From the UHGV virus genome UHGV-0212814: a stretch of DNA of 49,586 nucleotides, one strand, 5' to 3'. A program made the position numbers and the translations under genes. Below the pieces are notes generated by a model. That model worked only from the letters and a program-made list of their open reading frames with translations. It did no database searches and was not told where the DNA came from. Positions 1-14,167 of this stretch are shown here, in pieces (position 1 is the stretch's first letter; each line of letters begins with the position of its first letter). The stretch is from a virus.

Positions 1-26
1 CTGACATGTCCTGCACACATCGTTCA

Positions 27-236: not shown

Positions 237-242
237 CTCCTT

Positions 243-703: not shown

Positions 704-746
704 CTCTCCCCCCTCCTTTCCTTATCTTCCCATTGACACACGCCTA

Positions 747-962: not shown

Positions 963-1013
963 CCTCTCTCACCCTCCTTTTCCAGTTGACACACGTCCCT
1001 CATAGTGGTATAT

Positions 1014-1268
1014 TTATCGAATCGAACGTGTGTTTGTTTCACTTTCCCTCATGTCACATTTCGTGTCATTATTGTTAAAAAAAATGGCCTGCACACTTTT
1101 ATGGTAATACTTTGCTATCCGAATTTTTATTTCATCTCGCGGTATCCGGCTACCATTTTCGTACATTGATAAAGCAGACTTGCTGATTCCGACAGCTTTT
1201 GCAACTTCTTCCTGGGTTTTCTCACCCCTTAGTTGTATAAGGCGTTTAGAAATAGCCTCGGCATCCAT
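1014..1268 (-). CDS. XRE-family HTH regulator (Cro-like)
   Basis: EEVAKAVGISKSALSMYENG HTH_3 motif; RBS GGAGGTG 5 nt before the ATG at 1268 (track ORF extends to 1295); divergent from the ImmR-like gene. Confidence 0.8.
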   Translation of the reverse strand: MDAEAISKRLIQLRGEKTQEEVAKAVGISKSALSMYENGSRIPRDEIKIRIAKYYHKSVQAIFFNNNDTKCDMRESETNTRSIR

Positions 1269-1312
1269 AGATTCACCTCCTTTCCATTCTGACACATATC
1301 GTGTCTGTTCAT

Positions 1313-1341
1313 GTTATACCACCGTTTACACTTCGTGTCAA
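1313..1341 (-). promoter_or_regulatory. sigma70-like promoter for the cro-like gene (TTGACA-17-TATAAC)
   Basis: read on the minus strand; the palindromic GACACATATCGTGTC operator (1291-1305) lies between promoter and RBS. Confidence 0.5.
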
Positions 1342-1382
1342 TACGTAAAACAGATTTTTATTACAAAGTGTGTCATTCTTTC

Positions 1383-1411
1383 TTTACAACGTTCACAAAT
1401 TGTGATATCAT
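1383..1411 (+). promoter_or_regulatory. putative promoter for the ImmR-like repressor (TTTACA-17-TATCAT)
   Basis: sequence inspection upstream of the RBS GAGGTG at 1424-1429. Confidence 0.4.
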
Positions 1412-1435
1412 TTAGTATAGAAGCGAGGTGTAACC

Positions 1436-1780
1436 ATGGGAGAATTTAATAAAATATTTAAATTACTACGACAGACTCGTGGATATTCTCAAGCAGATTT
1501 ATCAGAGGCATTAGAAATCTCAAGAAGTTCTATCAGTATGTATGAAAATGGGAATAGAGAACCCGATTTCGAGACTCTAGAAAAAATTGCTGATTTTTTT
1601 AATGTAGATATAGATTATCTTTTGGGACGTAAGAAAGACACCACGGTAATCCAGTCTCAGATAAGGTTGTATGAACCAACTTATGAGGATATCCAAAGTC
1701 TTATTGCAAGGAACGGAAAAAAACTCACGGTCGAACAAAAACAGGATATCATCAGAACTTTATTATCTGATGATGATTAA
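1436..1780 (+). CDS. XRE-family HTH repressor (ImmR/CI-like)
   Basis: QADLSEALEISRSSISMYENG HTH_3 motif; immediately followed by an ImmA-type protease gene. Confidence 0.8.
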   Translation: MGEFNKIFKLLRQTRGYSQADLSEALEISRSSISMYENGNREPDFETLEKIADFFNVDIDYLLGRKKDTTVIQSQIRLYEPTYEDIQSLIARNGKKLTVEQKQDIIRTLLSDDD

Positions 1781-1794
1781 AGGAGTGGTTTTGT

Positions 1795-2496
1795 TTGGAA
1801 CAATACGACTTTTTCCGCGTTATCTTAGATGCGTATGAAATATGCGGCATCAGAAGTTTTCCTATTGACTGTATAGAAGTCATAAAAAGATTAAAGATTC
1901 CCCTGTTTAAGTATTCTGAGTTATCCGCCAAAAAGGAACGGGAATGTTACAGGGTAAGTGATGATGCATTTAAATTAAAGGGGAAAATTTATTACAATGA
2001 TGCTTTCCCATATATTTATCGCCAACGTTTTACGTTAATGCACGAAGTTGGTCACATACTATTGGGGCATGTTGGAGATACAAAAGAAAACGATGATGAG
2101 GCTGATGACTTTGCCAGTCACTTTCTGGCGCCGCGTATCATGATACATAAATACGGCTACCGGGACGCGGAACAGCTGCATGATGCTTTCGGCCTGTCCT
2201 ATCGGGCCGCCAACCGAGCATTATTGTCCTACAAGGAATGGTTCCGCAACATCTCCTACAGTGCGACTGGAAAGCCCACAAAACCGGAGCTACAGCTTGA
2301 GCATATCTTTTTCCCAGAAGTAGAACTCGTACCAATCCGGCAAGGTATTGTCCAACCAGCCAAGGAATGCTATGTGGATGAAGATTACAAGGAAAACGAT
2401 GAGCGTTCCGATTTTATGAAATTCTTAAGTAGATGGCGCGGAGACTTGGGATTTGGTATGGCAGAAAATAAGTGGCTCTATGGGAATGACTTATGA
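1795..2496 (+). CDS. ImmA/IrrE-family zinc metallopeptidase (anti-repressor protease)
   Basis: HEVGHILLGH HEXXH motif; conserved position downstream of the XRE repressor; TTG start with an AGGAG RBS. Confidence 0.85.
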   Translation: MEQYDFFRVILDAYEICGIRSFPIDCIEVIKRLKIPLFKYSELSAKKERECYRVSDDAFKLKGKIYYNDAFPYIYRQRFTLMHEVGHILLGHVGDTKENDDEADDFASHFLAPRIMIHKYGYRDAEQLHDAFGLSYRAANRALLSYKEWFRNISYSATGKPTKPELQLEHIFFPEVELVPIRQGIVQPAKECYVDEDYKENDERSDFMKFLSRWRGDLGFGMAENKWLYGNDL

Positions 2497-2547
2497 TTAA
2501 AATAGCCTATGGCTTTTTAATAAACCAAATGAAAAGAGGGAATAGGT

Positions 2548-2994
2548 ATGGGAAAAGAAAAATCTGCAACAAAAAAATGTAAGTTCTGCCAGTCGGAAAT
2601 AGACTCTAAGGCTAAAGTATGCCCAGTGTGTAAAAGAGCATTAAAGGGCCGACATGGTTGTCTAATGACAATACTTATATTTTTAATTCTTGTTTGTGGA
2701 GGATTTGCAATCTCTATGAATATGAATAGTTCACTGCAGAAATCTGTATCCGGTGTCAATGATGAATCTGAATATATCACTTTAGATGAGTATAATAAAA
2801 TTGATACTGGTATGACTTATGATGAGGTCAAGGAAATCGTGGGAAGCGAGGGAACCGTTTCTTCCCAAGTTGAATCAAACGGCTATAAGATTGTAATCAT
2901 AACCTGGTATGGCAATGGAACAGCTGGTTCCAACGCCAATGTGACATTTACCAATGACTCTGTATCCGGAAAAGCACAAGTCGGATTAAAATAA
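2548..2994 (+). CDS. zinc-ribbon / single-TM protein with BLIP-like (DUF3862-type) C-terminal domain
   Basis: N-terminal CxxC...CxxC, then TM LMTILIFLILVCGGFAI, then a domain with MTYDEVKEIVGSEG; placed between immA and int, a typical moron position. Confidence 0.6.
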   Translation: MGKEKSATKKCKFCQSEIDSKAKVCPVCKRALKGRHGCLMTILIFLILVCGGFAISMNMNSSLQKSVSGVNDESEYITLDEYNKIDTGMTYDEVKEIVGSEGTVSSQVESNGYKIVIITWYGNGTAGSNANVTFTNDSVSGKAQVGLK

Positions 2995-3012
2995 CATTTT
3001 ACACGGTAAAAT

Positions 3013-3037
3013 CCCCTGTGCAGGTAGCACAGGGGGC
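3013..3037. terminator. hairpin CCCCTGTGC-aggta-GCACAGGGG after the zinc-ribbon gene
   Basis: perfect 9-bp stem; flanking U/A-rich on the minus-strand reading; approximate coordinates. Confidence 0.4.
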
Positions 3038-3124
3038 ACACTGACAACATAATATCCTTACCCGGGCAACCGGGAGGGCGTGCGTGCCATTCGTTCTGAG
3101 TCTTGACAGGAAGGATGGTTGCTT

Positions 3125-3205
3125 ATGAGTACATATGAGGAATTTCAGATTATATTAGGCGTTGCCTTGTTAATCGTTGCAATCCTGAACATGAAAAATA
3201 AGTAA
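3125..3205 (+). CDS. 26-aa hydrophobic peptide (MSTYEEFQIILGVALLIVAILNMKNK)
   Basis: RBS GGAAGGATGG 6 nt upstream; followed by an 11/12-bp inverted repeat; lies in the 520-bp non-coding leader upstream of int. Confidence 0.3.
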   Translation: MSTYEEFQIILGVALLIVAILNMKNK

Positions 3206-3481
3206 GCCGCCCTGCTCCTTGGCCGGATGGGCGACTTACTAAAGTTGTTATAATTCGCCAGGACGGATAGGCTTAATCTATCTCCCGGCTGTCTTGTTAA
3301 GTATATTATACCAAATATACGGAAATTGTCAAATGTGAAAGCGGCCCTGTTACCAGCAGGAGCCGCCCTCACATAGATTTCTCTTACCGGACTGCTCCGG
3401 CACGATATAGTCAACTAACATCTGAATTATATCATTCCTGGAACGTCCTGGCAAGGGGCGTATTATTTATACCCAAAATCA

Positions 3482-3497
3482 GTTGCGATATCGCAAC
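3482..3497. promoter_or_regulatory. perfect 16-bp palindrome GTTGCGATATCGCAAC, 16 nt upstream of the int start
   Basis: the identical palindrome recurs at 6466-6481 upstream of the endolysin. Confidence 0.5.
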
Positions 3498-3513
3498 GGG
3501 AAGGAATGATATC

Positions 3514-4650
3514 ATGCCAAAACGAAAGAAACATCCCAGGCTCCCCAACGGCTACGGCTCCATCCGATACCTTGGCAAGAGCCGGAAGAACCCCTATGCG
3601 GTCCACCCGCCGGCAGACATTGACGGGAACCGGCCTCCGGCCCTCTGTTACGTGGATGACTGGATGAAGGGTTTCATAATCCTCACATCCTACAAGGCAG
3701 GTACCTATACCCCAGGTATGGAGGCCGCCCTGAATCTGCCTAATACCCCCGATACCCTTGATTCCCTGGCAGGGAAAATCATGGCCGATTACAACCGTGT
3801 CAAGGGAATCGAACCTGAGGAACCTGAGAAGACCTTCTCAGCGGTCTACGATGCATTCTATGCCGATAAATTTGCAGAAGGCAATAAATACTCTGCGGCA
3901 ACTAAATATTCAATCAAGGCCGCTTATAAGAACTGTGCATCCCTCTACGGTAAAGTGTTTTCTGCACTCCGTACAAAGGACCTGCAGGATAACCTGGATG
4001 CCTGTGGTCTAAAATATGCCAGCCTGGAACTTATCAGGAATCTGTACAGGCAGATGTATAAATATGCTGACAGTCAAGGGTGGTGCGATAAGGACTATAG
4101 TCAGTATGTTAAAATTAAAAGGGATGACGATGACGAACATGGTGTGCCCTTCTCAGACGCAGACCTGAAAATCCTGTGGGATAACAAAACTGACGAAACT
4201 GCAGAGATGCTTCTCATTATGTGCTATTCCGGATGGCGTATATCAGAATACATTGGCCTTGAAGTCAATCTGCCGGAAAAGTATTTTATGGGTGGAATGA
4301 AAACGGAAGCTGGTAAGGGGCGTATCGTTCCTATCCATTCTGCAATTCTCCCTTTGGTCGGGCGCCGGATGGGAAAGTATGGAAAGCTCCTTCCGTGCAG
4401 CGACAAGGATTTCAGGAAACAAATGGAGGAGCTACTGAACCGGCTCGGAATCCCAGGTGACCCCAAGCATACACCACATGACTGCCGGCATACATTCTCC
4501 ATGTTGTGCGAAAAGTATGAGGTAAAAGAAAACGACCGTAAACGGATGATGGGGCACTCATTCAAAGCCGACATCACCAACAAGGTCTACGGCCACCGCG
4601 ACATGGAAGACCTGAAAAAAGAGATAGAAAAAATAACCGTTGATTTGTGA
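3514..4650 (+). CDS. int: tyrosine site-specific integrase
   Basis: C-terminal HDCRHTFS...MGHS...Y catalytic pattern of phage integrases; 378 aa. Confidence 0.9.
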   Translation: MPKRKKHPRLPNGYGSIRYLGKSRKNPYAVHPPADIDGNRPPALCYVDDWMKGFIILTSYKAGTYTPGMEAALNLPNTPDTLDSLAGKIMADYNRVKGIEPEEPEKTFSAVYDAFYADKFAEGNKYSAATKYSIKAAYKNCASLYGKVFSALRTKDLQDNLDACGLKYASLELIRNLYRQMYKYADSQGWCDKDYSQYVKIKRDDDDEHGVPFSDADLKILWDNKTDETAEMLLIMCYSGWRISEYIGLEVNLPEKYFMGGMKTEAGKGRIVPIHSAILPLVGRRMGKYGKLLPCSDKDFRKQMEELLNRLGIPGDPKHTPHDCRHTFSMLCEKYEVKENDRKRMMGHSFKADITNKVYGHRDMEDLKKEIEKITVDL

Positions 4651-4660
4651 CTTTATTGTG
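4643..4660 (+). repeat. ATTTGTGACTTTATTGTG arm-type repeat (copy 1, overlaps int stop)
   Basis: 17/18 identical to copy 2 at 4853-4870; each copy contains tandem TTGTGAC half-sites. Confidence 0.5.
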
Positions 4661-4852
4661 ACCAATAAACCCTAATAACGTGGTAGAAAGCGGTAGGAAC
4701 CGGAAGTTTCAAAAATGCCGCAAACCCGCATAAAACCTACCATTTTCACCCCATATCTTATATAAATCCTACCATTCTGAAAACCACTCCGTATTAAAGT
4801 GTCGTTAATATTTATGGCCTAAAAAGTACGGTTTTACAAGGTTTTTCAGTGC

Positions 4853-4870
4853 ATTTGTGACTTTACTGTG
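4853..4870 (+). repeat. ATTTGTGACTTTACTGTG arm-type repeat (copy 2)
   Basis: direct repeat of 4643-4660, 210 bp downstream. Confidence 0.5.
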
Positions 4871-4946
4871 TCTAATAGGGCGGCATATATAGGTATGAAA
4901 TAGTATGAAATTGGCGGGTCCGGTCAATCCGGTTCCCGCCTTTTCC

Positions 4947-5204
4947 TTACTTTCCATGTCCATCCTGAATCCGTTTCCACACCTTCTCAAACTCATCTGG
5001 CGCCGGTTGCGGCACCTCGCCATCCGGGATGTGGTCCCTCACCCACTCAAACTCCTTGAGCAGTCCTTCTGGTGGTTCTTCTGGCGGCTTGTCTTCCTGT
5101 TTCCTTTCCATACCGTGTCCCTCCTTTATAAGGACATTGTACGCCTGTCCAGCGCAAATGGAGCATGGTAAATTATGGTAGTTACCGTCTTTTCTTATAT
5201 CCAT
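4947..5204 (-). CDS. hypothetical protein
   Basis: 85 aa; RBS GAGGGGGG upstream; divergent from the XRE gene at 5298. Confidence 0.45.
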   Translation of the reverse strand: MDIRKDGNYHNLPCSICAGQAYNVLIKEGHGMERKQEDKPPEEPPEGLLKEFEWVRDHIPDGEVPQPAPDEFEKVWKRIQDGHGK

Positions 5205-5297
5205 CTCACAATCCCCCCTCGCTACATATTTTAGGCCAAATTAGAGTAAATTTCAATAGGCCAATACAGACTAAATTATAATGCTCTGTATTGGAGG

Positions 5298-5531
5298 ATG
5301 ATTATGAGATTGGAACGACTACGGGATTTACGGGATGACAAGGATTTGACACAGCAATATGTTGCGGATTACCTGCATATAAACCAACGGACCTATTCCA
5401 GGTATGAGAATGACCAACGGATGATACCGTTCCAGATTCTATCTGCGCTTGCTGATTTATATGACACCAGTGTTGATTATCTGATAGGACGGACAGATGT
5501 TAAGGATCCGTATCCCAAGAAGAAAAGGTAA
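5298..5531 (+). CDS. XRE-family HTH regulator
   Basis: LTQQYVADYLHINQRTYSRYENDQ HTH_3 motif; RBS GGAGGA; a 9-bp inverted repeat CCAATACAG/CTGTATTGG brackets the TATAAT -10 just upstream. Confidence 0.75.
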   Translation: MIMRLERLRDLRDDKDLTQQYVADYLHINQRTYSRYENDQRMIPFQILSALADLYDTSVDYLIGRTDVKDPYPKKKR

Positions 5532-5568
5532 CATTACGGCGAGGACCGATAATCCCCGCCGCTTTTTA

Positions 5569-6411
5569 TTACTCTCCTAGTCCTGGCCAGCGCAACGCCC
5601 CATCCTTATCCGGTGTTAGTGTCACAGGCTCCGTGGCCATCTTACCATCCGGCATCAGGTAATAGTAGTTGCCTCCACCGGCCTGCAGTCCCTGAACCAT
5701 AGCCCCATCCGCGCCCAGGTAGTACCAGTCACCTTTGTACTGATACCAGGTATCGGTGACCATGTGGCCGGTGCCGTCAAACCAGTACCACTTGCCATCC
5801 GTATCAAGGTACCAGGAGTTGCGGACCGGCTCACCGGTATTTCCCAGGTAAAAGCTCCAGGCACCGTCCGCATTCTGCTCCCAGCCGGATTTCCTTGGCT
5901 GCTCCGGCTCCTGGATTACATCATCCTGTATGTATCTACGCACACACACCAGCCCCTTACGCCATCCTCCGGACGCCCAGGAATTGTACCGACTCTTACA
6001 GTAGGCCACCAGGTCCTTATAGGACGGCCTGCCGGAACCGTGACCACAGATAATGCCGTTGCCGCAGTACATCTCCACATGGCCTATCCTGAGTGGCCTG
6101 GAAGCATCCGTACCAGCAAACAGTAGCATGTCCCCCGGCCGGAGCCTGGACGTATCCGGGATGCCTTGGGCTATGTCCGCATCCACGGTGGTCAGCTTTT
6201 TGGACTGGTAGATGCCTGCGGTGTTAAGATTTCCGAATCCCATTCCTACCGCCTCATAGGTAAGGCAGATGGAGCTGCTGCAGTCACTGTAGTAATTACC
6301 ATCCTTATATCGTACATAGCAGTAATCCCTCAGGGACTGGCTGTATATGTTACGGCCTATAATCTCTGCGTACTTATCAATTACGGCCTGTCTCCTTAAT
6401 AATGCTGTCAT
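5569..6411 (-). CDS. endolysin: NlpC/P60-like cysteine peptidase plus C-terminal cell-wall-binding repeats
   Basis: Cys...His...His pattern (CLTYEAVG, IGHVEMYCGNG) and YG/W-rich repeats (GWEQNADGAW, WYLDTDGKWYW, WYQYKGDWYYL). The track ORF runs to a TTG at 6480; the ATG at 6411 has RBS TGGAGGAAAG and is preferred. Confidence 0.75.
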   Translation of the reverse strand: MTALLRRQAVIDKYAEIIGRNIYSQSLRDYCYVRYKDGNYYSDCSSSICLTYEAVGMGFGNLNTAGIYQSKKLTTVDADIAQGIPDTSRLRPGDMLLFAGTDASRPLRIGHVEMYCGNGIICGHGSGRPSYKDLVAYCKSRYNSWASGGWRKGLVCVRRYIQDDVIQEPEQPRKSGWEQNADGAWSFYLGNTGEPVRNSWYLDTDGKWYWFDGTGHMVTDTWYQYKGDWYYLGADGAMVQGLQAGGGNYYYLMPDGKMATEPVTLTPDKDGALRWPGLGE

Positions 6412-6480
6412 ATCTTTCCTCCAATCCAAATAAGGCCCAGGGATATCCCCAGGCCTGCCCACATTGTTGCGATATCGCAA

Positions 6481-6705
6481 CTAATCCCGGACAATATTCC
6501 CGGATGTATCCACATGCCAGCCAACGGCAATCACAAACTTCCCGGTATCATCGTGATAGTCAATCCCGTGGTCCGGGCCATCATACAGGGATTTAAGGGT
6601 GCCATATTCAGGTGTTCCCTTGGCAGCCGCAATCTTTGCCTCCAGGTCAGGGATTTCCGCAACATTAATAGGCTTCCATGGTTCGTTGTTCAATGGATAA
6701 TTCAT
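6481..6705 (-). CDS. hypothetical protein in the lysis cassette
   Basis: 74 aa; RBS GAGGGAAAG. Confidence 0.55.
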   Translation of the reverse strand: MNYPLNNEPWKPINVAEIPDLEAKIAAAKGTPEYGTLKSLYDGPDHGIDYHDDTGKFVIAVGWHVDTSGNIVRD

Positions 6706-6785
6706 AGTCTTTCCCTCTCTTTCATGATTTGGTTGATAGTTCCGCCTTAACCCTGACGGCTGGGAGATGTATGGACCACCTCCCC

Positions 6786-6998
6786 TCAGGCATCAGTCTT
6801 GGTATCCAGTTCCGGTAGTCCGGCTATGGATGTAGCCATGGACAGGATGCCCGCCAGTACGGATGCGGATGCTACCATGGGCCAGTTAACCTCACCCATT
6901 ACGGCAGCCGTCCCCACTGTTGCTATAAACGTCTGTGCTACCGTCTTGACCGCCCTGCGCCCTGCTGCCCTGAACCATTTCCTTGTGTTCTCACTCAT
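6786..6998 (-). CDS. holin (XhlB/SPP1-type, two TM segments)
   Basis: 70 aa from the second ATG (RBS AGAGGAG); two hydrophobic stretches; sits between the XhlA-like gene and the endolysin. Confidence 0.7.
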   Translation of the reverse strand: MSENTRKWFRAAGRRAVKTVAQTFIATVGTAAVMGEVNWPMVASASVLAGILSMATSIAGLPELDTKTDA

Positions 6999-7012
6999 AG
7001 ATATATCTCCTC

Positions 7013-7345
7013 TCATTTGATGATGTACTGAGCCATCATTGCGATAAGACCGATTGCCAATGCCGCAGCACCGGCCCCAATCATTTGGTTAAATACAGTC
7101 CGTTTCATACTACTCCACCGCTCTCCTGGCTCCGCCTTTAGTTTCTCAATGTCTTCTCCCTGTTTCTTCTGCTCATGGAGCATGTTCCCCATATTGATAG
7201 TCAGTTCTTTTACTGACAGGGCAAGGTCCTGTATAGCCTGATTCTGTACTTCCAGGTCATCAATCCGGTGTTTTGCTGACTTTGTCTCATGTTCCAACGC
7301 AGTAAGTTTTATGGCGATTTCTTCATCATTCACATGTGGCACCAT
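7013..7345 (-). CDS. xhlA: XhlA-family haemolysin-like lysis protein
   Basis: coiled-coil N-terminus plus C-terminal TM (MIGAGAAALAIGLIAMMAQYII), as in PBSX XhlA. Confidence 0.65.
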   Translation of the reverse strand: MVPHVNDEEIAIKLTALEHETKSAKHRIDDLEVQNQAIQDLALSVKELTINMGNMLHEQKKQGEDIEKLKAEPGERWSSMKRTVFNQMIGAGAAALAIGLIAMMAQYIIK

Positions 7346-7350
7346 CCTTC

Positions 7351-7818
7351 CTATGATATTTGGGGCAACCAGATTATCTTAGGCCTGCGCCGTGTAATGC
7401 CTACGTTATAACGTGGCCGCTCCTCACCCCACCATCGGTACCGCAGCCAGTCATCCAGCACAATCCCGGTCAGGGATACCGGCAGCCAGAGCAGGCAGTA
7501 CTGTGGGCATATCTGCCCCAGGACGTTGCCCGGAAGGCCGCTGTAGTCCCATACCCCCCAACCCAGCCACAGGTTGACGATGCACCCGGTCAGGAACTCC
7601 AGCGCCGTCACGATGCAGGCGCCGGTTAGTATCTGCTGCCACAGGGGCATGTCCCAGGGTAATACCTCATTGATTAGTCCCAACGCCACGAAACAGATGC
7701 CGCCCAGAAGGAACATCGTCCAATGGCTCCTGCCGCGCCAGGCCATCTCCAGGATTATGTACAACAGCCCTCCTGTAACCAGCAGGGCCGCATACTTGTC
7801 AACCTTCCGGTGTGGCAT
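7351..7818 (-). CDS. hypothetical 4-TM membrane protein
   Basis: four hydrophobic segments; start MPHRKV with RBS GAGGTGG; the track ORF extends to 7896. Confidence 0.5.
   Translation of the reverse strand: MPHRKVDKYAALLVTGGLLYIILEMAWRGRSHWTMFLLGGICFVALGLINEVLPWDMPLWQQILTGACIVTALEFLTGCIVNLWLGWGVWDYSGLPGNVLGQICPQYCLLWLPVSLTGIVLDDWLRYRWWGEERPRYNVGITRRRPKIIWLPQIS
7402..7416. promoter_or_regulatory. palindrome ACGTTATAACGTGG (second copy of the 35101-35116 palindrome)
   Basis: 14-15 of 16 nt identical to CCACGTTATAACGTGG at 35101. Confidence 0.35.
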
Positions 7819-8539
7819 CCGTTCCACCTCCTGCAATTGTAGTAATCTCCACCAAGTAGGCCTTAAGCACATCTGACTGATACTGCTCCGGCACATCGGC
7901 GCCGTAGAATATCTCGGCTACCTCATCCGTGGTCTGGCAGCCAGCAATCCACATGTTAAGTGCGTTACAGTACGTGGTGTGATAGGACACATGCCACATG
8001 GCCGCCTGGATGATGGCCTGCATGTCTGCCGCGCTGTAATACCTGCAGGGCTGTCCATCGGCATGGTACTCCAGCTGAGTTGCCCCGGCAGTTATCTGGC
8101 TCAGCTTACCGAACAGGTTAAGCTGGTCCTCGATGGTCAGAGCATAATGCTCCACGCTGCCATCAGCCAACGCCACGTTGATACCGGCATAGATAAGCCC
8201 CTCACACTCCGCTGCCACCTCCCGGCGCTTACCTGCCTGCAGCTCCCCCAAGGTCGGGACATAAGGTTCCGGAGGCTCCCCTGGTCCATCCGGCGTATCA
8301 GGTGCCTGATACACGCTGCCATCATTGGACAGATACACCGTCTGTCCATCGTCCCGATACACCGTGTCATACCCGGTTAGGGTTGCTGCCTCCGTGCCAT
8401 CCTCGGTGTAGATGGTGATGTCTCCCCAGGAGATGGGCACGGGGTCGGCAAACACAATCTGCATGACATTGGGAGACATGGGGCGGATACCCTTAATCTC
8501 ATACAGCGGCTCATCCTTTCCTATTCTGATTTTTTCCAT
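7799..8539 (-). CDS. hypothetical tail-associated protein
   Basis: 246 aa from the ATG with RBS GAAGGT; lies between the fibre genes and the lysis cassette. Confidence 0.5.
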   Translation of the reverse strand: MEKIRIGKDEPLYEIKGIRPMSPNVMQIVFADPVPISWGDITIYTEDGTEAATLTGYDTVYRDDGQTVYLSNDGSVYQAPDTPDGPGEPPEPYVPTLGELQAGKRREVAAECEGLIYAGINVALADGSVEHYALTIEDQLNLFGKLSQITAGATQLEYHADGQPCRYYSAADMQAIIQAAMWHVSYHTTYCNALNMWIAGCQTTDEVAEIFYGADVPEQYQSDVLKAYLVEITTIAGGGTDATPEG

Positions 8540-8610
8540 GTTTTTACCTTCTTTCTGCATTTTTATGTATTATAAAAGGCCCTTGGAGGGCCTGAATTTT
8601 CGTTTTTGCT

Positions 8611-9207
8611 GTGTGTTATACCAATTTAGATGGTAGGACTGCAGTGGCTGATTTGCTTGCAATTGCTAATATTGGGCCATCTGGTAGACGGATTGTACAA
8701 TGCAATGAAAACACGCTTAATACACCGTATGAGGCAGGACTGACCAATGGTAAAAGTGGCACAGCATACATCAACATGTCATCTGTCGATTATGGGACAA
8801 TATTATATATCGTATCTGGGACTAATCGGATATTTTTGCGGTCCAAAGATAACGGAATCTGGAGTAATTGGGGTGAACTCTTAAAAAAAGCGGATTATGA
8901 AGCAAAAAAAATCACTAATTCTTACGGCCTTACAATAGTTTTATTTACGTTTGGCAGTGATACTATTAAAGCAATAAAAATCGGGGGATATGTAAATAAA
9001 GCCCTGTCTGCGGGTACAGCATATACTATTGCTACTAATACTGAGGTCAAATCCCGCGTGGAATGGTATCACAATATACATTGTGGTATCAACGGAATAA
9101 ATACAGTTGCCTATCTGCGTATTACTACAGATGGAAATATTGTACTTACGCCACAAACAGCAATTGCTTCTGGAGTTGGCATAAATATCGCAGAGTATTA
9201 TGTATAA
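8611..9207 (+). CDS. start-less alternative tail-fibre C-terminal cassette (silent in this orientation)
   Basis: 198-codon open frame in low-GC DNA with no ATG or SD; convergent with the fibre gene; begins exactly at a 12-bp inverted repeat shared in frame with that gene; contains a W..W motif similar to the fibre C-terminus. Confidence 0.4.
   Translation: MCYTNLDGRTAVADLLAIANIGPSGRRIVQCNENTLNTPYEAGLTNGKSGTAYINMSSVDYGTILYIVSGTNRIFLRSKDNGIWSNWGELLKKADYEAKKITNSYGLTIVLFTFGSDTIKAIKIGGYVNKALSAGTAYTIATNTEVKSRVEWYHNIHCGINGINTVAYLRITTDGNIVLTPQTAIASGVGINIAEYYV
8618..8629. repeat. inverted repeat ATACCAATTTAG (left copy)
   Basis: its reverse complement lies at 9660-9671; both encode T-N-L in frame. 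Confidence 0.6.
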
Positions 9208-9222
9208 TAATCAGTTAGATGA

Positions 9223-10044
9223 TTATTTATCGAAATAGATATATCCTATCAAAGCATTAGCATTATTGTCATAAACTGCAAGGGATTTTGTTCCTTGTGG
9301 TGATGGTTCGACTTGCAGACGAATCTGATGATAGTTCGAGCCAGCCAGCACACTCCCTGTTGCCATTCGGAAGGCAGAATTCTCATTTAAATCCGCATTT
9401 GACATTACTTTTTCCCATGAGGACCAACCTGTTTCCGCCACATATCGCCGGGTAAATAATTGTCCCATGTTACTTTTTGTTGTACTATACACACATTGGG
9501 CTAACTGCGAAAAGTTGGTATCGCTATCACCATTGGGCTGTACAACAAACGTATTTATGCCTGATATAGGCATATTTAGGCCATCGTAGATTCTATATGT
9601 TAATGCTGTGTTTGTGATATCTGGCTTAGCGTTATTACAATTGGTTATAGTTTTTATTGCTAAATTGGTATTGAGCACAGTATAAAGGTCCATCAAAGCC
9701 TTACCCTGTGCCGCCGAAAGGGGCAGTTTGGCATTATCCGTCACACAGTTGTTGACTATGCTGCCAATCAGGCAGACCCCCGTCATCCAGTTCTTGGTAT
9801 CCTCAAAAAATTTCTTGACCTTCCCCAGGAATGTCTTCGGCTTCTCACCGGCCACCGGGACCGGGAAATCTGTGGTTATGTTATCCAGCGTCTTTACCGT
9901 CATCTCAGATATATCCCCACCGGAGGATTCCGCCTTCTTTTTCAGCGCTGCGTCTACCACATCTGCGTTGTCATTGAAATCCTGTATATCAACCGGATCC
10001 GTACCTTCCGGCTTTTTTAGATTATAATTAGGTGTTAACTGCAT
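9223..10044 (-). CDS. tail fibre / receptor-binding protein (constant N-term plus variable C-term)
   Basis: 273 aa; GC drops from about 48% to about 40% near codon 128, where the inverted repeat sits. Confidence 0.6.
   Translation of the reverse strand: MQLTPNYNLKKPEGTDPVDIQDFNDNADVVDAALKKKAESSGGDISEMTVKTLDNITTDFPVPVAGEKPKTFLGKVKKFFEDTKNWMTGVCLIGSIVNNCVTDNAKLPLSAAQGKALMDLYTVLNTNLAIKTITNCNNAKPDITNTALTYRIYDGLNMPISGINTFVVQPNGDSDTNFSQLAQCVYSTTKSNMGQLFTRRYVAETGWSSWEKVMSNADLNENSAFRMATGSVLAGSNYHQIRLQVEPSPQGTKSLAVYDNNANALIGYIYFDK
9660..9671. repeat. inverted repeat CTAAATTGGTAT (right copy, inside the fibre gene at codons 125-128)
   Basis: perfect reverse complement of 8618-8629; imperfect extension to about 27 nt (21/27). 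Confidence 0.6.
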
Positions 10045-10047
10045 ATC

Positions 10048-10662
10048 CTATGCCTCCTTTAATGTCCTTACGTCATCCCAGGTCATGTCCCCAAGACGGT
10101 TCCATATATATGGTTTCAGTTCGTTCCATGTGGTGTATCGGTACTCAAACCGGTAGGCCAGATGCGCTGGCTTTATGTCCTCCAACATGGAGACAAATGC
10201 CTGCATGTTCCGGGGGATCCCTTTGATGCCGATAAACTGGATAATAAAAAAGTGATTGGGGTTATCCTCAATCACCTTTACCTCCCCGCCCGAAAAGGCC
10301 ACGGCCGTATCCTCTATCATCTTCCGGGTTGTGGTCCCCTGGCCCCGGAGTTTTGCCATGAGTATTTCCCGGCGCTGCTCATAGGTCAGGGACATGTTCG
10401 TGGCCACACCCAGCATCTGCTCCCACCTGGACAGCCCCCAGGTGGCCGTCACGATATAGCATTGGTCAATCAGGTCCTCCAGGTCATGTTGTAGCTGCCC
10501 TACCTCATAGCCCTGTGTCCGGTATATCTCCGCCATCTCCCGGAGCTCTGCCAGGAATGGCGGTGCATACCGCGCCAGGTCCACAAAATACTCCTCCGGG
10601 ACAGTACTGCCTGAGCCCTCCTGGGCGTACTGGCTGCGGCCATATAATGTCTTCCCATACAT
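10048..10662 (-). CDS. phage tail protein (possibly DUF2313/XkdU-like)
   Basis: 204 aa; position between the fibre genes; WGLSRWEQMLG motif. Confidence 0.45.
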   Translation of the reverse strand: MYGKTLYGRSQYAQEGSGSTVPEEYFVDLARYAPPFLAELREMAEIYRTQGYEVGQLQHDLEDLIDQCYIVTATWGLSRWEQMLGVATNMSLTYEQRREILMAKLRGQGTTTRKMIEDTAVAFSGGEVKVIEDNPNHFFIIQFIGIKGIPRNMQAFVSMLEDIKPAHLAYRFEYRYTTWNELKPYIWNRLGDMTWDDVRTLKEA

Positions 10663-10665
10663 GCC

Positions 10666-12741
10666 TTACACCCCCTTCAGGTCATTCCATGTCAGCGCCG
10701 GATTACTGCCGGCCGTCACATGGCCCTGCGCATTGACCGTGACACTCCGGTAGGTTCCGGCTGTCACCCCGCTGCTTGGATGGCTATATTTCGTATCAGG
10801 CGGTGTCTGCCAGGTCCCATCCGCCCTTAAATATTTTGTCTGCGCCCCTGCTGCTGGGGCCGGGACCAGACCAGTCCCGCCAGCGGCGCTTGAGGTGGCT
10901 GCCTTGAATACGGCATATGTGGTATTGTCATCCGCCCCCCACGCCGCAGTCCCATCAGCACTCCATCGTAGTATCTGCCCGCTGGACCCGCCGGATGGGA
11001 CATGCTTATTCCCTGCCGTAGTGGGGTGCACATACTTATTGGCCCCCTCCGCAATCCCCGCCAGCTTATCTAACATGGCCTGGGTGATTTTGTCCAGTAC
11101 CGTCTTATTCGCATGTGTGTGCTCCTGGCTGGTGTCCACATCCGCAGCAGTCAGATAGCCGGAATCGTTCGTGAACTGTGACAGCTTCGTGGGCATGTCC
11201 GTAATCTGGCTCTTGGTATGGCTATGGGAGGATGGCGGGAAGGTTGATGGCTTACTGCCTATCTCTGTCCAGGCATATGCAGGCTTTGCAGATGCCTTTG
11301 CCCAGGCTGGGACATCCGATGCGGGCATGGAGGACGGTTTGTTCCTGATATAGGCATCGGAGCCGGTATCCGTCACATCCCAGTCTGGCTGTACGTTGAC
11401 CTCAGCCCCTGATGCAATCCCCGCCAGCTTATCCAGCATGGCCTGGGTCAGCTTGTCAATCACGCCCTTATTGCTGTGGGCATGCTTCTTGGTATCGGCA
11501 TCGTTCCAGTTCGCCCGTTCCGTTGCCGTGATATGCTGGACCGTATCGGCTTTATGGGTGATGAAATCCGCTATGGCCTTTGCAATCTTCCCCATGGCCG
11601 CACCCAGTTTATCTCCGCTGGTCAGATTGGCCAGTGTGGTCGCCTGCGTATAGGTCGGTACCTGGTCATTGGTCGCCACATTGGGCACGCTCCCCAGCCC
11701 CACCTGTGACTTTGTCACCCCATGTGGATTACTTTTATTACTGATGTGGGTATAGGCATCCGACCAATTGGCCAGCAGTGTTTCCGTCAGCTTATCCAGG
11801 GTGGATTTGTTGCCATGGGAATGACGCTTATTGTATGCGTCATCATAATGGGTCTTATCCTCCTTGCTGAGCAGCCCATCCACACTCTGGGTCGCCTTGG
11901 GGATTGCATTGGCAGATATGGCAATCCAGGCAGTGCCATCCCAACGGTATGTGTAATCCGTGTCCTTGACATTTACCGTCCATCCATCATCGGGGTGAGG
12001 ATACGTTGCTGCAAGGTCTGCATAGGTATCAACCGCCTCTTTCCAGTCGATGGCTGTCTCCAGGGCGGAGAACTTATTGTCCACCTCGTTACGGGTGTAT
12101 TTATCATCCCAACTGGGCTTATTGGTATTGATGGTAGCCCGTATGGCATCCTCTGCAGCCGTGGCCCTGGATTTCTCCGCTGTGACTGCATCGCTATTTA
12201 CTTTCTCCGCTGCCTTTGCCCGCGTCACCTCGGCCGCCAGGTCAACCTTCAGCCCCTGTTCCGCTTCTTCCGCCCGTCTGGCCTCCGTATCAACCCGGCC
12301 ATCCAGACGGTCCTCCTCCTGCGTGGCGCGGTTGGTTTCTGCCTGCAGGTCATCTGTTAATTTCTTCTCTGCCCCCAGGGCCCTGGTTTCCTCCGCATTC
12401 AGCGCCTCCTGTGTTGCAACGATGGATTCCTGCACCCGGTTGATGTCGTCCCCCTCAACGGTATCCCCGTCAGTCTCATAGCTGATGTAGACCACCGGCG
12501 CATCCGCATACACCCGGACTATCCGTTTCCAGGGCGCCAGGCTGGGCGTTGACAGGGTATATGTTTCCAGGCGCTCCCCTGTCAGCTTCGGGCCGGTGAA
12601 CACAGCGAAGGTAGCCTCGTTGATGTTGTCATGCTGCAGCTCCGCCTCATACACGCCATTGGTAAGATGGATTTCCTCCTCCACGACATAGATGTTCCCA
12701 TCAACCTTATTCAATTTCTCATAAAAAACGTTTACCTGCAT
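10666..12741 (-). CDS. tail fibre protein with internal tandem repeats
   Basis: 691 aa; three copies of H-x-H-x-NK..LDK(L/I)TQAMLDKLAGIA plus coiled-coil; about 360-nt DNA direct repeats (11045-11110 and 11405-11470). Confidence 0.7.
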   Translation of the reverse strand: MQVNVFYEKLNKVDGNIYVVEEEIHLTNGVYEAELQHDNINEATFAVFTGPKLTGERLETYTLSTPSLAPWKRIVRVYADAPVVYISYETDGDTVEGDDINRVQESIVATQEALNAEETRALGAEKKLTDDLQAETNRATQEEDRLDGRVDTEARRAEEAEQGLKVDLAAEVTRAKAAEKVNSDAVTAEKSRATAAEDAIRATINTNKPSWDDKYTRNEVDNKFSALETAIDWKEAVDTYADLAATYPHPDDGWTVNVKDTDYTYRWDGTAWIAISANAIPKATQSVDGLLSKEDKTHYDDAYNKRHSHGNKSTLDKLTETLLANWSDAYTHISNKSNPHGVTKSQVGLGSVPNVATNDQVPTYTQATTLANLTSGDKLGAAMGKIAKAIADFITHKADTVQHITATERANWNDADTKKHAHSNKGVIDKLTQAMLDKLAGIASGAEVNVQPDWDVTDTGSDAYIRNKPSSMPASDVPAWAKASAKPAYAWTEIGSKPSTFPPSSHSHTKSQITDMPTKLSQFTNDSGYLTAADVDTSQEHTHANKTVLDKITQAMLDKLAGIAEGANKYVHPTTAGNKHVPSGGSSGQILRWSADGTAAWGADDNTTYAVFKAATSSAAGGTGLVPAPAAGAQTKYLRADGTWQTPPDTKYSHPSSGVTAGTYRSVTVNAQGHVTAGSNPALTWNDLKGV

Positions 12742-13775
12742 CAGCCCACCTCCAGTGTGACCGTACCGGCCACCGCAATCTCATCCTCCATCAGGGCCAC
12801 GTTGCCGGATACGCCGTTAAGCAGCAGGTTGGAATAATCCTCCACGCCCTCAGTCCCCAGCAGCAGGTTCCCTACCCTGGCCAGGCTCACATAGGACAGG
12901 TCCAGGGCCTCATTGTGCAGGTAGCCTGTCAACTTTGCCTGGAATGCATTCTGGACGACCCCCAGGTTCATGCCTGCCTGCAGCTTGATTCCAGCCGATA
13001 CATTGACAGCCTTCTCCACCACAGATGCCACCGTGACATCCGCGCCGATGGGGCGCAACTCCTCGATATGCCCCCGTACCATCTCCAACAGGCCGGTACC
13101 GGCGGCGGACATGTTGGCATCCGCTATGATGACCTTGACCGTCCCCGGTCCGCTGGACAGCGGGAAGACCTTGGCAGCCCCTACGCCCTCACACTCCATG
13201 GCCCAGTTGTAATAATCATACCGGTTGCCACTGGTGGAAGGCTTCTGTACCTTTGTCAGGTACCGCTCCAGCAGGGCCTCCGTGGGTTCCTCATCGCTCC
13301 CGTCCATGATGATTCCTGTCAGTTCCGCCCTCGTGAGTCCCTGGATGTAATCAATGGGGACCAAGGTTCCCAGCTCCCGGTTCCCGGCAGAGCCTGCCGT
13401 CTCGCATTCCATGCGGTAAATACCTTCCTCCATACGGTCTATGGCGACATAATTTAAGGTCCCCAGGGAGAACCGGGAACCTATCTCGATATCAATGTTA
13501 AATTCACCTTTCAAGACAGCCTTGGTTGCCGGATGTGGGGTCATATCCCATTCCGCGCAACGCCTGATTAGGTACTCGCGGGTTGCTGTGCCGGCGAACA
13601 CCTGGTCAAGGGTCCAGTCAAGCCCTATGTACGCATTCTGCAGTTCCACCGCAGTAGGTGCAAGGGCCGTATATATGGGGGAACTCTGCCTTGTATCCAT
13701 CCCCGGGCTATAATCCTTTGCCCTCCGGAGCATCCTGTCAAGGATGACCTCATATGTAGTATCTTCATACATCAC
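12741..13775 (-). CDS. baseplate J-like protein (XkdT-like)
   Basis: 344 aa; conserved order after the XkdS-like gene. Confidence 0.75.
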   Translation of the reverse strand: MMYEDTTYEVILDRMLRRAKDYSPGMDTRQSSPIYTALAPTAVELQNAYIGLDWTLDQVFAGTATREYLIRRCAEWDMTPHPATKAVLKGEFNIDIEIGSRFSLGTLNYVAIDRMEEGIYRMECETAGSAGNRELGTLVPIDYIQGLTRAELTGIIMDGSDEEPTEALLERYLTKVQKPSTSGNRYDYYNWAMECEGVGAAKVFPLSSGPGTVKVIIADANMSAAGTGLLEMVRGHIEELRPIGADVTVASVVEKAVNVSAGIKLQAGMNLGVVQNAFQAKLTGYLHNEALDLSYVSLARVGNLLLGTEGVEDYSNLLLNGVSGNVALMEDEIAVAGTVTLEVG

Positions 13776-14167
13776 ACATCCACCTCCTTGGTTGCACCAA
13801 TATCACCGTACCGGGTATGGACCGTAAACGTCACGGAAAGTTTCCGGCCGGAACCCTCAAAGGAAAACGCATCAACCCCCTGTATCCGGTCATCCTGCAT
13901 CAATGCCTCCTTTATACGCTTCTTTATTTTTGATTTGACCAGACCCATGGGTTTCCCGAACAGTCCCCTCAGTTCCACACCATAATTCCAGTCGTATATA
14001 AGCCAATCATACCTCTCCGTGTTGAGGATGCAGTGTACGGCCTGCTGCACCGCATCCCTTCCATCCACATAACCGGACAATGTGTCATCATTCATCCGGA
14101 ATGCCTTTGATGGAATCTCCTGTACCTCAAAATCAGACTCCAGGATGTCTCCCGTCTTCGGCAGCAT
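13772..14167 (-). CDS. baseplate protein (XkdS/gp25-like)
   Basis: about 131 aa from the ATG with RBS AAGGAGGTG; the track ORF extends to 14221. Confidence 0.55.
   Translation of the reverse strand: MLPKTGDILESDFEVQEIPSKAFRMNDDTLSGYVDGRDAVQQAVHCILNTERYDWLIYDWNYGVELRGLFGKPMGLVKSKIKKRIKEALMQDDRIQGVDAFSFEGSGRKLSVTFTVHTRYGDIGATKEVDV

What the first reader, a model, noticed from the sequence alone, without database searches (positions are those of the whole stretch)
8611..10044. Candidate invertible tail-fibre host-range switch: a start-less opposite-strand cassette joined in frame by a 12-bp inverted repeat
The fibre gene (9223-10044, minus) and a convergent 198-codon plus-strand ORF (8611-9207) share a perfect 12-bp inverted repeat, ATACCAATTTAG. 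It sits at 8618-8629 and, reverse-complemented, at 9660-9671. In both copies the repeat encodes T-N-L in the same frame, at codons 126-128 of the fibre gene and codons 4-6 of the plus ORF. The plus ORF has no ATG or SD. Inverting the 1054-bp segment between the repeats would therefore replace the present 145-aa fibre tip with an alternative 194-aa tip. The alternative carries a similar W..W motif (DNGIWSNWGEL against ETGWSSWEKV). Similarity extends imperfectly to about 27 nt on the upstream side only (21/27), as expected at a constant/variable junction. The segment also has lower GC (about 40%) than the constant N-terminal region (about 48%). This resembles the Mu G-segment or P1 C-segment design, but no Gin/Hin/Cin-like serine invertase is visible in the window.
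Basis: seen in the sequence. Interest (0 to 1): 0.85.

Follow-up and report, generated by a model that had tools for sequence, protein, structure and literature searches.

The report
Recombinase-less remnant of phage fibre shufflon
The inverted repeat marks a real flip-able pair of alternative tail-fibre tips belonging to a multi-cassette, tyrosine-recombinase 'shufflon' common in gut Lachnospiraceae prophages, but this copy has lost the recombinase and is probably locked in one state.

Summary
In detail: ATACCAATTTAG lies at 8618-8629 (+) and 9660-9671 (-), and encodes T-N-L in frame in both ORFs. A 12-mer inverted pair alone is not beyond chance (11 in the window, about 5 expected). Comparative data settle it. 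Across about 40 related phage loci the fibre junction recurs as a downstream inverted repeat whose sequence co-varies between lineages. Seventeen of 80 related contigs end at that junction. Near-identical copies of this phage carry the same A/B segment (>=99.5% identical) in both orientations and in different slots. They also carry two more cassette pairs and a 331-aa XerD/XerA-like tyrosine recombinase inside the invertible region. Cassette B is a genuine fibre tip, because full-length fibres elsewhere read ...NSNL-DDRTAVADLLAIAN... So this is a tyrosine-recombinase fibre shufflon, closest to the Rin system of Bifidobacterium prophages, not a Gin/Cin serine-invertase switch. The window holds only the minimal form (N-terminus | A> <B | flank) with no recombinase. 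The same layout recurs in two independent assemblies, always in this orientation. The fusion of the N-terminus with B was never found. The most likely history is site-specific deletion between directly oriented sites, which locked the switch unless a recombinase acts in trans. It is a new member of a known kind, of moderate interest.

The parts
9672..10044 (-). Constant N-terminal part of the short tail-fibre gene (codons 1-124), the 'expression slot' of the shufflon
   Evidence: ORF 9223-10044. It carries a Phage_fiber_rpt hit and phrog_30004. 780 database proteins share this N-terminus with many different C-termini, all diverging right after ...LYTVLNTNL.
9660..9686 (-). Recombination site sN: context arm TATACTGTGCTCA plus the shared core ATACCAATTT(A/G). 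The core lies at 9660-9671 and encodes T-N-L.
   Evidence: Homology with L002 ends here. 17 of 80 related contigs end within -12..+66 nt of this point.
9223..9659 (-). Cassette A, the currently expressed fibre tip (codons 129-273 plus stop)
   Evidence: The identical cassette is found behind five different slot contexts (sN, sR1, sM1, sM2, sF) in other assemblies.
8630..9207 (+). Cassette B, a silent, start-less alternative fibre tip (192 codons plus stop) convergent with A
   Evidence: phrog_257 minor tail protein, E 5e-5. It is 55-63% identical over its full length to the C-terminal parts of full-length fibres joined after (S/T)-N-L. The identical cassette sits behind sR1, sR2, sM2 and sF in other contigs.
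8603..8629 (+). Recombination site sF (flank slot): context arm TTTTTGCTGTGTGTT plus the core ATACCAATTTAG at 8618-8629
   Evidence: The 99-100% identity with the flank of L002, L094-L098 and L089 ends inside this core.
8577..8593 (.). GC-rich hairpin with T-runs on both strands (terminator-like), between the shufflon and the next gene
   Evidence: It is conserved in L005 and L052 at the same position. Its function is inferred only.
7799..8539 (-). Constant flank gene (DUF4376, 246 aa from the MEKIRIG start), the fixed right-hand border of the shufflon in all relatives
   Evidence: Pfam PF14301. The exact protein is present in 208 blocks of the assembly collection.
3514..4650 (+). Phage integrase, the only recombinase in the window. 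It is not a homologue of the shufflon recombinase and is listed for completeness as the only cis-encoded candidate.
   Evidence: PF00589 and phrog_1. tblastn of the shufflon recombinase against the window gives E 4.4 here. The att junction lies at about 4793.

Best explanation
The segment 8618-9671 is one 'cassette pair' (A> <B) of a tail-fibre shufflon driven by a tyrosine recombinase.

**Complete form.** In complete copies of this prophage (hosts: Enterocloster and other Lachnospiraceae) the layout is N-terminus | pair | recombinase segment | pair | short spacer | pair | flank. There are six sites, and all share the core ATACCAATTT(A/G). Each site has a conserved arm only on its fixed (context) side. 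A 331-aa XerD/XerA-like recombinase encoded inside the region recombines oppositely oriented sites within this core. This inverts whatever lies between them and places a different start-less cassette in frame behind codon 128 (T-N-L) of the fibre gene.

**This window.** It holds only the minimal form, N | A> <B | flank. The recombinase segment, the spacer and the other two pairs are absent. That is what recombination between two directly oriented sites (for example sR1 and sF) would leave.

**Consequence.** In this genome the fibre is most likely fixed as N+A, and B is a silent spare. It would flip only if a recombinase of this family were supplied in trans, for example by a co-resident related prophage.

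**Shown:** the architecture, the in-frame joints, the tip identity of B, inversion and permutation of the identical modules between assemblies, and absence of the recombinase here.

**Inferred:** the crossover position inside the 10-11-nt core, the deletion origin, the locked state, and the effect on host range.
For: 1. **Conserved, co-varying architecture.** In about 40 of 56 related viral loci the DNA at fibre residue ~128 recurs as an exact 12-47-nt inverted repeat 0.5-3.2 kb downstream. Lineages carry different repeat sequences, and many loci have 3-5 sites on both strands.
2. **Recombinase in relatives.** L002 has the same backbone (95-99% identity, stopping exactly at the two sites). Between its sites lie 3.76 kb holding a 331-aa tyrosine recombinase and five start-less xxTNL cassettes. 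The recombinase hits PF00589+PF13495, approaches the XerA/C/D NCBIfam models, matches PDB XerA at 2e-29 and XerD at 5e-27, and has intact catalytic GCRVSE/HLLRH/TRIY motifs.
3. **Same modules, many arrangements.** With elements >=99.5% identical, the maps are:
   - window, L103, L105: N|AB+|FL
   - L096: N|CD+|M|AB+|FL
   - L095: N|CD+|M|AB-|FL
   - L094: N|FE+|R+|CD+|M|AB-|FL
   - L098: R+|AB-|M|FE+|FL
   - L101: N|AB+|M|FE-|R+
   - L083: N|CD+|M|AB+|R+|FE-

   These come; the junction matrix is. The inverted state flank+A is seen at 100% identity in L089 and L090.
4. **Heterogeneity within single assemblies.** One cassette start is attached to two contexts in the same contig (L081, L097, L098). 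In addition, 17 of 51 contigs that end downstream do so within 70 nt of the junction, against about 1 expected.
5. **B is a fibre tip.** The identical N-terminus is fused after TNL to the B-like cassette F (P0040) and to at least 10 other tips.
6. **No recombinase in the window.** L098 is 100% identical to window 8631->1 yet carries the recombinase.
7. **The recombinase-less layout recurs.** It appears in two independent Logan assemblies that run through both sites without a break.
Against: - No read-level data were available, so neither inversion nor its absence has been shown for this genome.
- The recombinase-less layout could be an assembly shortcut.
- N+B was never observed. This fits locking but also leaves the expressibility of B itself untested.
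- Recombinase-less two-cassette layouts are common in diverged lineages with well-kept repeats (L005, L042). That could mean they are maintained and served in trans rather than being dead remnants.
- The receptor-binding role of the tips is by analogy only. No solved-structure or Pfam match exists for A or B.
Confidence: 0.75

Rival explanations
1. The two-cassette segment is an active two-state switch in this genome, flipped by a recombinase supplied in trans (a related prophage in the same Lachnospiraceae host, or another Xer-like enzyme). The minimal form would then be a maintained design, not a remnant.
For: - The window's two sites are identical to sites used in recombinase-bearing copies.
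- Recombinase-less two-cassette layouts with intact 13-22-nt repeats occur in several diverged lineages.
- The two recombinase-less four-cassette contigs L095 and L096 differ by inversion of AB.
- A recombinase-less fibre inversion was proposed for Bifidobacterium prophages (PMC6109161).
- The recombinase family is widespread in Enterocloster and Lachnospiraceae genomes.
Against: - The window-type layout was seen 3 of 3 times in one orientation.
- The L005-type segment was seen 7 of 7 times in one orientation.
- N+B was never seen.
- Contigs without the recombinase run through the sites unbroken, whereas recombinase-bearing ones tend to break there.
Confidence: 0.2
2. The recombinase-less layout is an assembly shortcut. 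The real phage carries the full six-cassette shufflon with its recombinase, and the assembler walked N -> AB -> flank through a tangled graph created by inversion heterogeneity.
For: - All local junctions in the window (sN:A, sF:B) exist in full-length shufflon populations.
- L098 is 100% identical to window 1-8631 but has the recombinase.
- Many assemblies of this locus are visibly fragmented or carry duplicated cassette starts.
Against: - In one molecule with a single AB module, sN:A and sF:B can coexist only in the minimal layout. For both to dominate enough to give an unbranched contig, the minimal genotype must be real.
- The same layout was assembled independently from two other runs by a different assembler (Logan contigs L103, L105).
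- An intermediate four-cassette, recombinase-less form was also assembled twice (L095, L096).
- The shared core is only 10-12 nt, too short to collapse at usual k-mer sizes.
Confidence: 0.2
3. It is a Gin/Cin/Pin-type serine-invertase switch (Mu G-segment design) served by a host-encoded invertase.
For: The overall logic is the same: a constant fibre N-terminus and an invertible segment with alternative C-termini.
Against: - No PF00239 protein was found in the window or in any related locus examined.
- Relatives instead carry a tyrosine recombinase inside the segment.
- The sites are asymmetric, with one conserved arm plus a 10-nt core, unlike the 26-bp dyad-symmetric gix/cix sites (from established knowledge).
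- There are no cassette-linked chaperone genes.
Confidence: 0.02
4. The repeat is a chance match or a relic of modular exchange by homologous recombination at a conserved linker, and the plus ORF is an unrelated or independently expressed gene.
For: - 12-mer inverted pairs are common by chance.
- The DNA encoding ...LYTVLNT... is conserved among many fibres and marks a mosaic boundary.
Against: - The repeats co-vary across lineages.
- A recombinase is present in relatives.
- Identical modules are permuted between assemblies.
- B has no start or SD, and it begins exactly at the core.
Confidence: 0.02

Closest known systems
Rin shufflon of Bifidobacterium breve/longum prophages (Mavrich et al. 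2018, Sci Rep 8:12772, PMC6109161); also reported in Eggerthella lenta prophages (PMC8778435)
   Same: - A phage-encoded, arm-less XerD-like tyrosine recombinase.
- A constant N-terminal receptor-binding/fibre gene followed by start-less variable C-terminal cassettes.
- A short (11-bp) asymmetric crossover repeat in front of each cassette.
- Multiple inversions seen when genomes are compared.

The same paper also describes a two-segment inversion at an 8-bp repeat with no flanking recombinase, which is the direct analogue of this window.
   Different: - Hosts here are Lachnospiraceae (Bacillota), not Actinobacteria.
- The tail module is contractile-tail/baseplate-J/Mu-gp48 type rather than a TP901-1-like siphovirus RBP.
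- The recombinase sits inside the invertible region between cassette pairs, so it flips itself, rather than at one end.
- Cassettes are arranged as convergent pairs.
- The core sequence is different (ATACCAATTT against TTCCCTAACCC).
- Sequence relatedness of the two recombinases was not tested.
R64/IncI plasmid shufflon (Rci tyrosine recombinase, sfx sites, PilV tips); from established knowledge
   Same: - A multiple-inversion system run by a tyrosine recombinase.
- Asymmetric sites in which only the core and one arm are conserved.
- A constant N-terminus with switchable C-terminal segments of an adhesin.
- Occasional deletion derivatives.
   Different: - The target there is a conjugative-pilus adhesin, not a phage fibre.
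- Rci lies outside the shufflon.
- No sequence comparison was made here.
Mu Gin/G segment, P1 Cin/C segment, e14 Pin, p15B Min
   Same: The biological logic is the same: inversion swaps the C-terminal part of a tail fibre behind a constant N-terminal part. Min is also a multi-site shufflon.
   Different: - Those systems use small serine invertases with dyad-symmetric 26-bp sites, an enhancer and Fis.
- Their variable parts come with their own chaperone genes.
- None of these features is present here.
Type I restriction-modification hsdS shufflons with Xer-like recombinases (for example pneumococcal ivr, Mycoplasma, Bacteroides); from established knowledge and PMC9881135
   Same: Xer-like tyrosine recombinases flip start-less half-gene cassettes into an expressed specificity gene in Bacillota.
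   Different: The target gene and the repeats differ, and those systems are not phage structural genes.

Membership tests
Tyrosine-recombinase tail-fibre/RBP shufflon (Rin-type) | Constant N-terminal fibre/RBP coding part followed by start-less alternative C-terminal cassettes | tested here: met
   The window has N (9672-10044), A (9223-9659) and B (8630-9207). B lacks a start or SD. B-type tips occur in full-length fibres.
Tyrosine-recombinase tail-fibre/RBP shufflon (Rin-type) | Short asymmetric crossover repeat in front of every cassette, keeping the reading frame | tested here: met
   The core ATACCAATTT(A/G) sits at both window sites and at all six slots of relatives. Only the context arm is conserved, and the T-N-L frame is kept.
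Tyrosine-recombinase tail-fibre/RBP shufflon (Rin-type) | Arm-less XerD-like tyrosine recombinase encoded at the locus | tested here: not met
   It is absent from the window (Pfam). It is present in near-identical relatives L081-L085, L094, L097, L098, L101 and in 19 of 80 viral loci. The window is therefore a recombinase-less derivative, not a complete member.
Tyrosine-recombinase tail-fibre/RBP shufflon (Rin-type) | Inversions at the sites actually observed (between genomes or within a population) | tested here: met
   This holds for the lineage. The AB module is in both orientations and several slots at >=99.5% identity, and the recombinase is flipped in L014 and L038 relative to L002. For the window's own minimal layout only one orientation was seen (3/3).
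Tyrosine-recombinase tail-fibre/RBP shufflon (Rin-type) | Recombinase orthologous to Rin | not tested
Only the general XerA/XerD-like affinity is shown.
Serine-invertase fibre switches (Gin/Cin/Pin/Min) | Small serine recombinase (resolvase/invertase domain) adjacent to the segment | tested here: not met
   No PF00239 hit in 30 window ORFs, no YxRVSTxxQ motif, and no Hin similarity. None was found in the related loci inspected.
Serine-invertase fibre switches (Gin/Cin/Pin/Min) | 26-bp dyad-symmetric crossover sites and cassette-linked tail-fibre assembly genes | tested here: not met
   The sites are asymmetric. The segment holds only the two convergent tips, with 15 nt between their stop codons.
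Diversity-generating retroelement (considered) | Direct template/variable repeats of about 100 nt plus a reverse transcriptase | tested here: not met
   No direct repeat of that kind lies around the fibre, and the architecture is inverted cassettes. A reverse transcriptase was not searched for exhaustively.

The most novel reading that the evidence does not exclude
Loss of the recombinase by recombination between directly oriented sites may be a regular outcome, not an accident. Under this reading, shufflon-bearing phages continually spawn 'locked' single-tip derivatives such as this window. These derivatives keep a silent spare tip that can be re-activated in trans when they co-reside with a recombinase-positive relative. 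Fibre-tip switching in gut Lachnospiraceae prophages would then be a communal, trans-complemented system.
Probability: 0.15. Interest if true: 0.7.

Novelty: new member of a known kind. Interest (0 to 1): 0.45.

Why it matters
- **Prevalence.** The prophage is common in human-gut metagenomes: its flank protein occurs in 208 blocks of the assembly collection. Its fibre N-terminus is joined to dozens of different tips (780 related proteins).
- **What the shufflon explains.** It accounts for the tip diversity. It also explains why metagenomic contigs of these phages so often end at one codon, and why a mid-genome 'integrase' appears in their tail modules.
- **Extension of known biology.** Phage-encoded tyrosine invertases for receptor-binding proteins were previously described in Actinobacteria prophages. 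This extends them to contractile-tailed prophages of Lachnospiraceae.
- **A natural comparison.** The lineage offers complete, four-cassette and two-cassette recombinase-less forms of one phage. These can be used to study how such switches are lost or locked.
- **Practical use.** Host-range prediction and annotation pipelines should treat the silent cassettes as alternative fibre ends, not as hypothetical genes.

Tried and rejected
- **Statistics on the bare repeat.** It is not significant, so the repeat alone was rejected as evidence.
- **Cultured or deposited phages.** Megablast of 7800-10700 and tblastn of the fibre both gave no match.
- **Serine invertase in the window.** None was found.
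- **Shufflon recombinase homologue in the window.** None was found. The phage integrase is unrelated beyond the family fold.
- **Predicted N+B protein and N+B DNA junction.** Neither was found in viral, metagenome or genome collections, or in the protein database.
- **Extending the inverted-state contig L089 with an internal AB probe.** There was no match, so that contig simply ends at the site.
- **Integron-like horizontal movement of cassette pairs.** The 507-nt L005-type pair is 99.8% identical in phages with 37%-identical N-termini. However, the shared block starts about 100 nt upstream of the site and runs on through the flank. This is ordinary mosaicism, not site-bounded transfer. Rejected.
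- **Solved-structure sequence searches for tips A and B.** Nothing was found.
- **Inverted repeats around the mid-genome Xer-like 'integrase' of cultured phages phiCp-D and TPELB_ph1.** The result was inconclusive in AT-rich DNA.
- **First look-up of the flank protein.** Using the upstream ATG found one contig only. The MEKIRIG start is the one gene callers use.
Full report
**1. The observation**

The sequence is as described.
- ATACCAATTTAG occurs at 8618-8629 (+) and, reverse-complemented, at 9660-9671. There are no other copies in the window, even with one mismatch.
- The repeat finder reports arms 8603-8629 / 9660-9686 of 27 nt at 78% complementarity. The extra similarity lies on the outer side only: 9/15 outer against 5/15 inner.
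- The fibre ORF is 9223-10044 (minus, 273 aa) and the plus ORF is 8611-9207.
- Codons 126-128 of the fibre and codons 4-6 of the plus ORF are both ACC AAT TTA = T-N-L.
- The plus ORF has no ATG, no Shine-Dalgarno sequence and no promoter-like site upstream.
- GC content is 38.4% inside the segment, 48.5% in the fibre constant part and 55-60% in the neighbouring genes.

A perfect 12-mer inverted pair within 2 kb is not unusual. The window has 11 such pairs, and shuffles give 5.2 +/- 2.7. The repeat alone proves nothing.

**2. Context**

The window is a complete-looking temperate phage genome.
- It carries an integrase (3514-4650), a repressor/ImmA module, replication genes, terminase, an SPP1-type portal, Mu F, scaffold, baseplate J (12741-13775), a 691-aa fibre, a Mu gp48-like protein (10048-10662), the 273-aa fibre, and then DUF4376, a CmpB-like protein, holin and lysin.
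- Integrated copies in bacterial contigs lose homology at window position 4793. The window therefore shows the excised or circular arrangement.
- Source names for related proteins and genome titles point to Enterocloster, Dorea and other Lachnospiraceae as hosts.

**3. Comparative evidence that the junction is a recombination site**

- A scan of IMG/VR with the fibre gave 80 loci, and most match only residues 1 to about 128.
- Seventeen of these contigs end within -12..+66 nt of residue 128. About one would be expected among the 51 contigs that end anywhere in the 3.9 kb downstream.
- In about 40 of 56 loci with enough downstream DNA, the junction sequence recurs as an exact inverted repeat of 12-47 nt, 0.5-3.2 kb downstream. 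Different lineages have different repeat sequences, for example TACTGTGCTCAATACCAAGATA, CTCAATTGTATAGTGA... and AATAACAATTTGAGTAA. The two arms therefore co-vary.
- Many loci have three to five copies on both strands.

**4. The recombinase**

- L002 has the window's backbone: 95% identity up to the right site and 99% from the left site outward, with homology ending at window 9657 and 8627. It carries 3.76 kb between the sites.
- That region holds five start-less cassettes, all beginning x-x-T-N-L, and a 331-aa ORF.
- The ORF is a tyrosine recombinase. It hits PF00589 + PF13495, with nearest NCBIfam models XerA/XerC/XerD. It matches PDB XerA at 2e-29 and XerD at 5e-27, and its GCRVSE, HLLRH and TRIY motifs are intact.
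- Homologues lie in the same place in 19 of 80 viral loci, on either strand relative to the fibre.
- The window has no homologue and no serine recombinase.

**5. Cassette B is a fibre tip**

- B hits phrog_257, a minor tail protein.
- A protein search found full-length fibres of 285-333 aa whose C-terminal parts are 55-63% identical to all of B. They are joined as ...N-S-N-L-D-D-R-T-A-V-A-D-L-L-A-I-A-N..., which is exactly the joint that inversion would create here.
- The identical N-terminus is fused after T-N-L to the B-like cassette F (P0040, 297 aa) and to at least ten other tips.

**6. The same A/B segment in other states**

- P0001 is B at 100% identity with a different upstream context. 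It led to contigs L081-L088. L081 is 99.87% identical to window 8595-14000 but has the recombinase directly beside B.
- A degenerate junction pattern found L089 and L090 (SKEY01000047.1). There the window's left flank, at 100% identity, is joined at the core to A instead of B. This is the inverted state.
- Contigs fetched through the flank gene and the fibre gave explicit maps with all elements >=99.5% identical:

| Contigs | Layout |
|---|---|
| window, L103, L105 | N\|AB+\|FL |
| L096 | N\|CD+\|M\|AB+\|FL |
| L095 | N\|CD+\|M\|AB-\|FL |
| L094 | N\|FE+\|R+\|CD+\|M\|AB-\|FL |
| L097 | [A start]\|R+\|CD+\|M\|AB-\|FL |
| L098 | R+\|AB-\|M\|FE+\|FL |
| L101 | N\|AB+\|M\|FE-\|R+ |
| L083 | N\|CD+\|M\|AB+\|R+\|FE- |

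- Six slot contexts (sN, sR1, sR2, sM1, sM2, sF) and six cassettes reassort freely. Contexts differ right up to ATACCAATTT, and cassettes differ right after it. The exchange must therefore occur within these 10-11 nt (inference).
- In L081, L097 and L098 one cassette start is attached to two contexts within one contig, which indicates mixed states inside single samples.

**7. What the window itself is**

- It is the minimal form: two sites, one pair, no recombinase.
- L098 is 100% identical to window 1-8631 yet carries the recombinase, so the loss is recent.
- Recombination between directly oriented sites would produce exactly the window's hybrid left site (sF context + B). An example is sR1 next to B, as in L081, recombining with sF. 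An intermediate (L095/L096: four cassettes, no recombinase) also exists.
- An assembly shortcut cannot be excluded, but it is disfavoured. sN:A and sF:B can both dominate only if the minimal molecule is real, and two other runs assembled by a different pipeline give the same unbroken layout.
- The minimal layout was seen three times, always AB+. N+B was never found.
- In another lineage a recombinase-less 507-nt pair is in one orientation in 7 of 7 loci.

I therefore consider this copy probably locked. Trans-activation is the main alternative.

**8. Comparison with known systems**

- The closest is the Rin shufflon of Bifidobacterium prophages. It has an arm-less XerD-like tyrosine invertase, a constant Rc plus variable Rv, and 11-bp asymmetric rix sites. 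The same paper reports a recombinase-less two-segment inversion. Rin was later reported in Eggerthella prophages.
- Tail-fibre genes are a recognised class of programmed-inversion targets.
- I found no description for Lachnospiraceae phages in the searchable literature.
- Differences from Rin are the host phylum, the contractile-tail baseplate context, the recombinase embedded inside the invertible DNA, the convergent cassette pairs and a different core sequence.
- The system works like Mu G / P1 C only at the level of logic. The serine-invertase features were tested and not met.

**9. Verdict**

The enzymology, the scale (a shufflon, not a two-state switch) and the status of this copy (recombinase lost) differ from the proposal. 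It is a new member of a known kind, of moderate interest.

Noticed in passing
window 8577-8593: GC-rich hairpin (AGGCCCTTGGAGGGCCT) with T-runs on both strands, lying between the shufflon and the DUF4376 gene. A similar hairpin sits at the same place in L005 and L052. It could terminate the fibre transcript after the silent cassette, or insulate B from outside transcription.
   Followed up: partly
window ~4793 (between lysin 5569-6480 and integrase 3514-4650): Homology with integrated copies in bacterial contigs (L094, L095, L097, L099) stops exactly at 4793, whereas L096 and L098 continue into the integrase as the window does. This is probably the att core, and the window is the excised or circular form.
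   Followed up: partly
window 29499-31115 (-): A Mu F-like head morphogenesis protein carries a C-terminal 'Papain fold toxin 1 / glutamine deamidase' domain (PF04233 + PF15644). This may be a virion-delivered effector.
   Followed up: no
window 2548-2994 (+): A small protein with DUF3862/BLIP (beta-lactamase inhibitor protein-like) domains and an N-terminal zinc-ribbon hit lies in the lysogeny module next to the integrase. It looks like a moron-like gene.
   Followed up: no
window 11042-11126 and 11405-11489 (inside the 691-aa fibre gene 10666-12741): An 85-nt direct repeat, 73% identical and 363 nt apart. It corresponds to a repeated H-x-H-x-NK..LDK(L/I)TQAMLDKLAGIA motif in the long fibre.
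   Followed up: no
L117 (Clostridium phage phiCp-D, MW478291.1 21639-22616) and L118 (Terrisporobacter phage TPELB_ph1, PP197244.1 17645-18640): Cultured Clostridia phages carry a Xer-like gene, 31-35% identical to the shufflon recombinase and annotated 'integrase', between the last tail gene and the holin. TPELB_ph1 has a second integrase in its lysogeny module. These may be unrecognised tail-gene invertases. The inverted repeats found nearby were inconclusive.
   Followed up: partly
L114 (Enterocloster citroniae DSM 19261, NZ_JBEPLZ010000005.1) 5100-8500: An isolate type strain carries an 86%-identical recombinase with start-less cassettes beginning x-x-N-T-D-L. They sit behind a different, 169-aa fibre gene (...GLNTDLKLL...). 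The recombinase and site system is therefore attached to unrelated fibre N-termini.
   Followed up: partly
L005 4385-4891; L011, L052-L056: A 507-nt recombinase-less cassette pair is 99.8% identical in phages whose fibre N-termini are only about 37% identical. It is in the same orientation in 7 of 7 loci. The shared block starts about 100 nt upstream of the site and runs through the lysis genes, which indicates mosaic exchange.
   Followed up: yes
L081 1-62 versus 1270-1331; L097 1-87; L098 1-43: Contigs that begin inside the shufflon carry a short copy of a cassette start that also occurs elsewhere in the same contig behind another slot. This is a signature of mixed inversion states in the sample, and a useful marker for finding such loci in assemblies.
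   Followed up: partly
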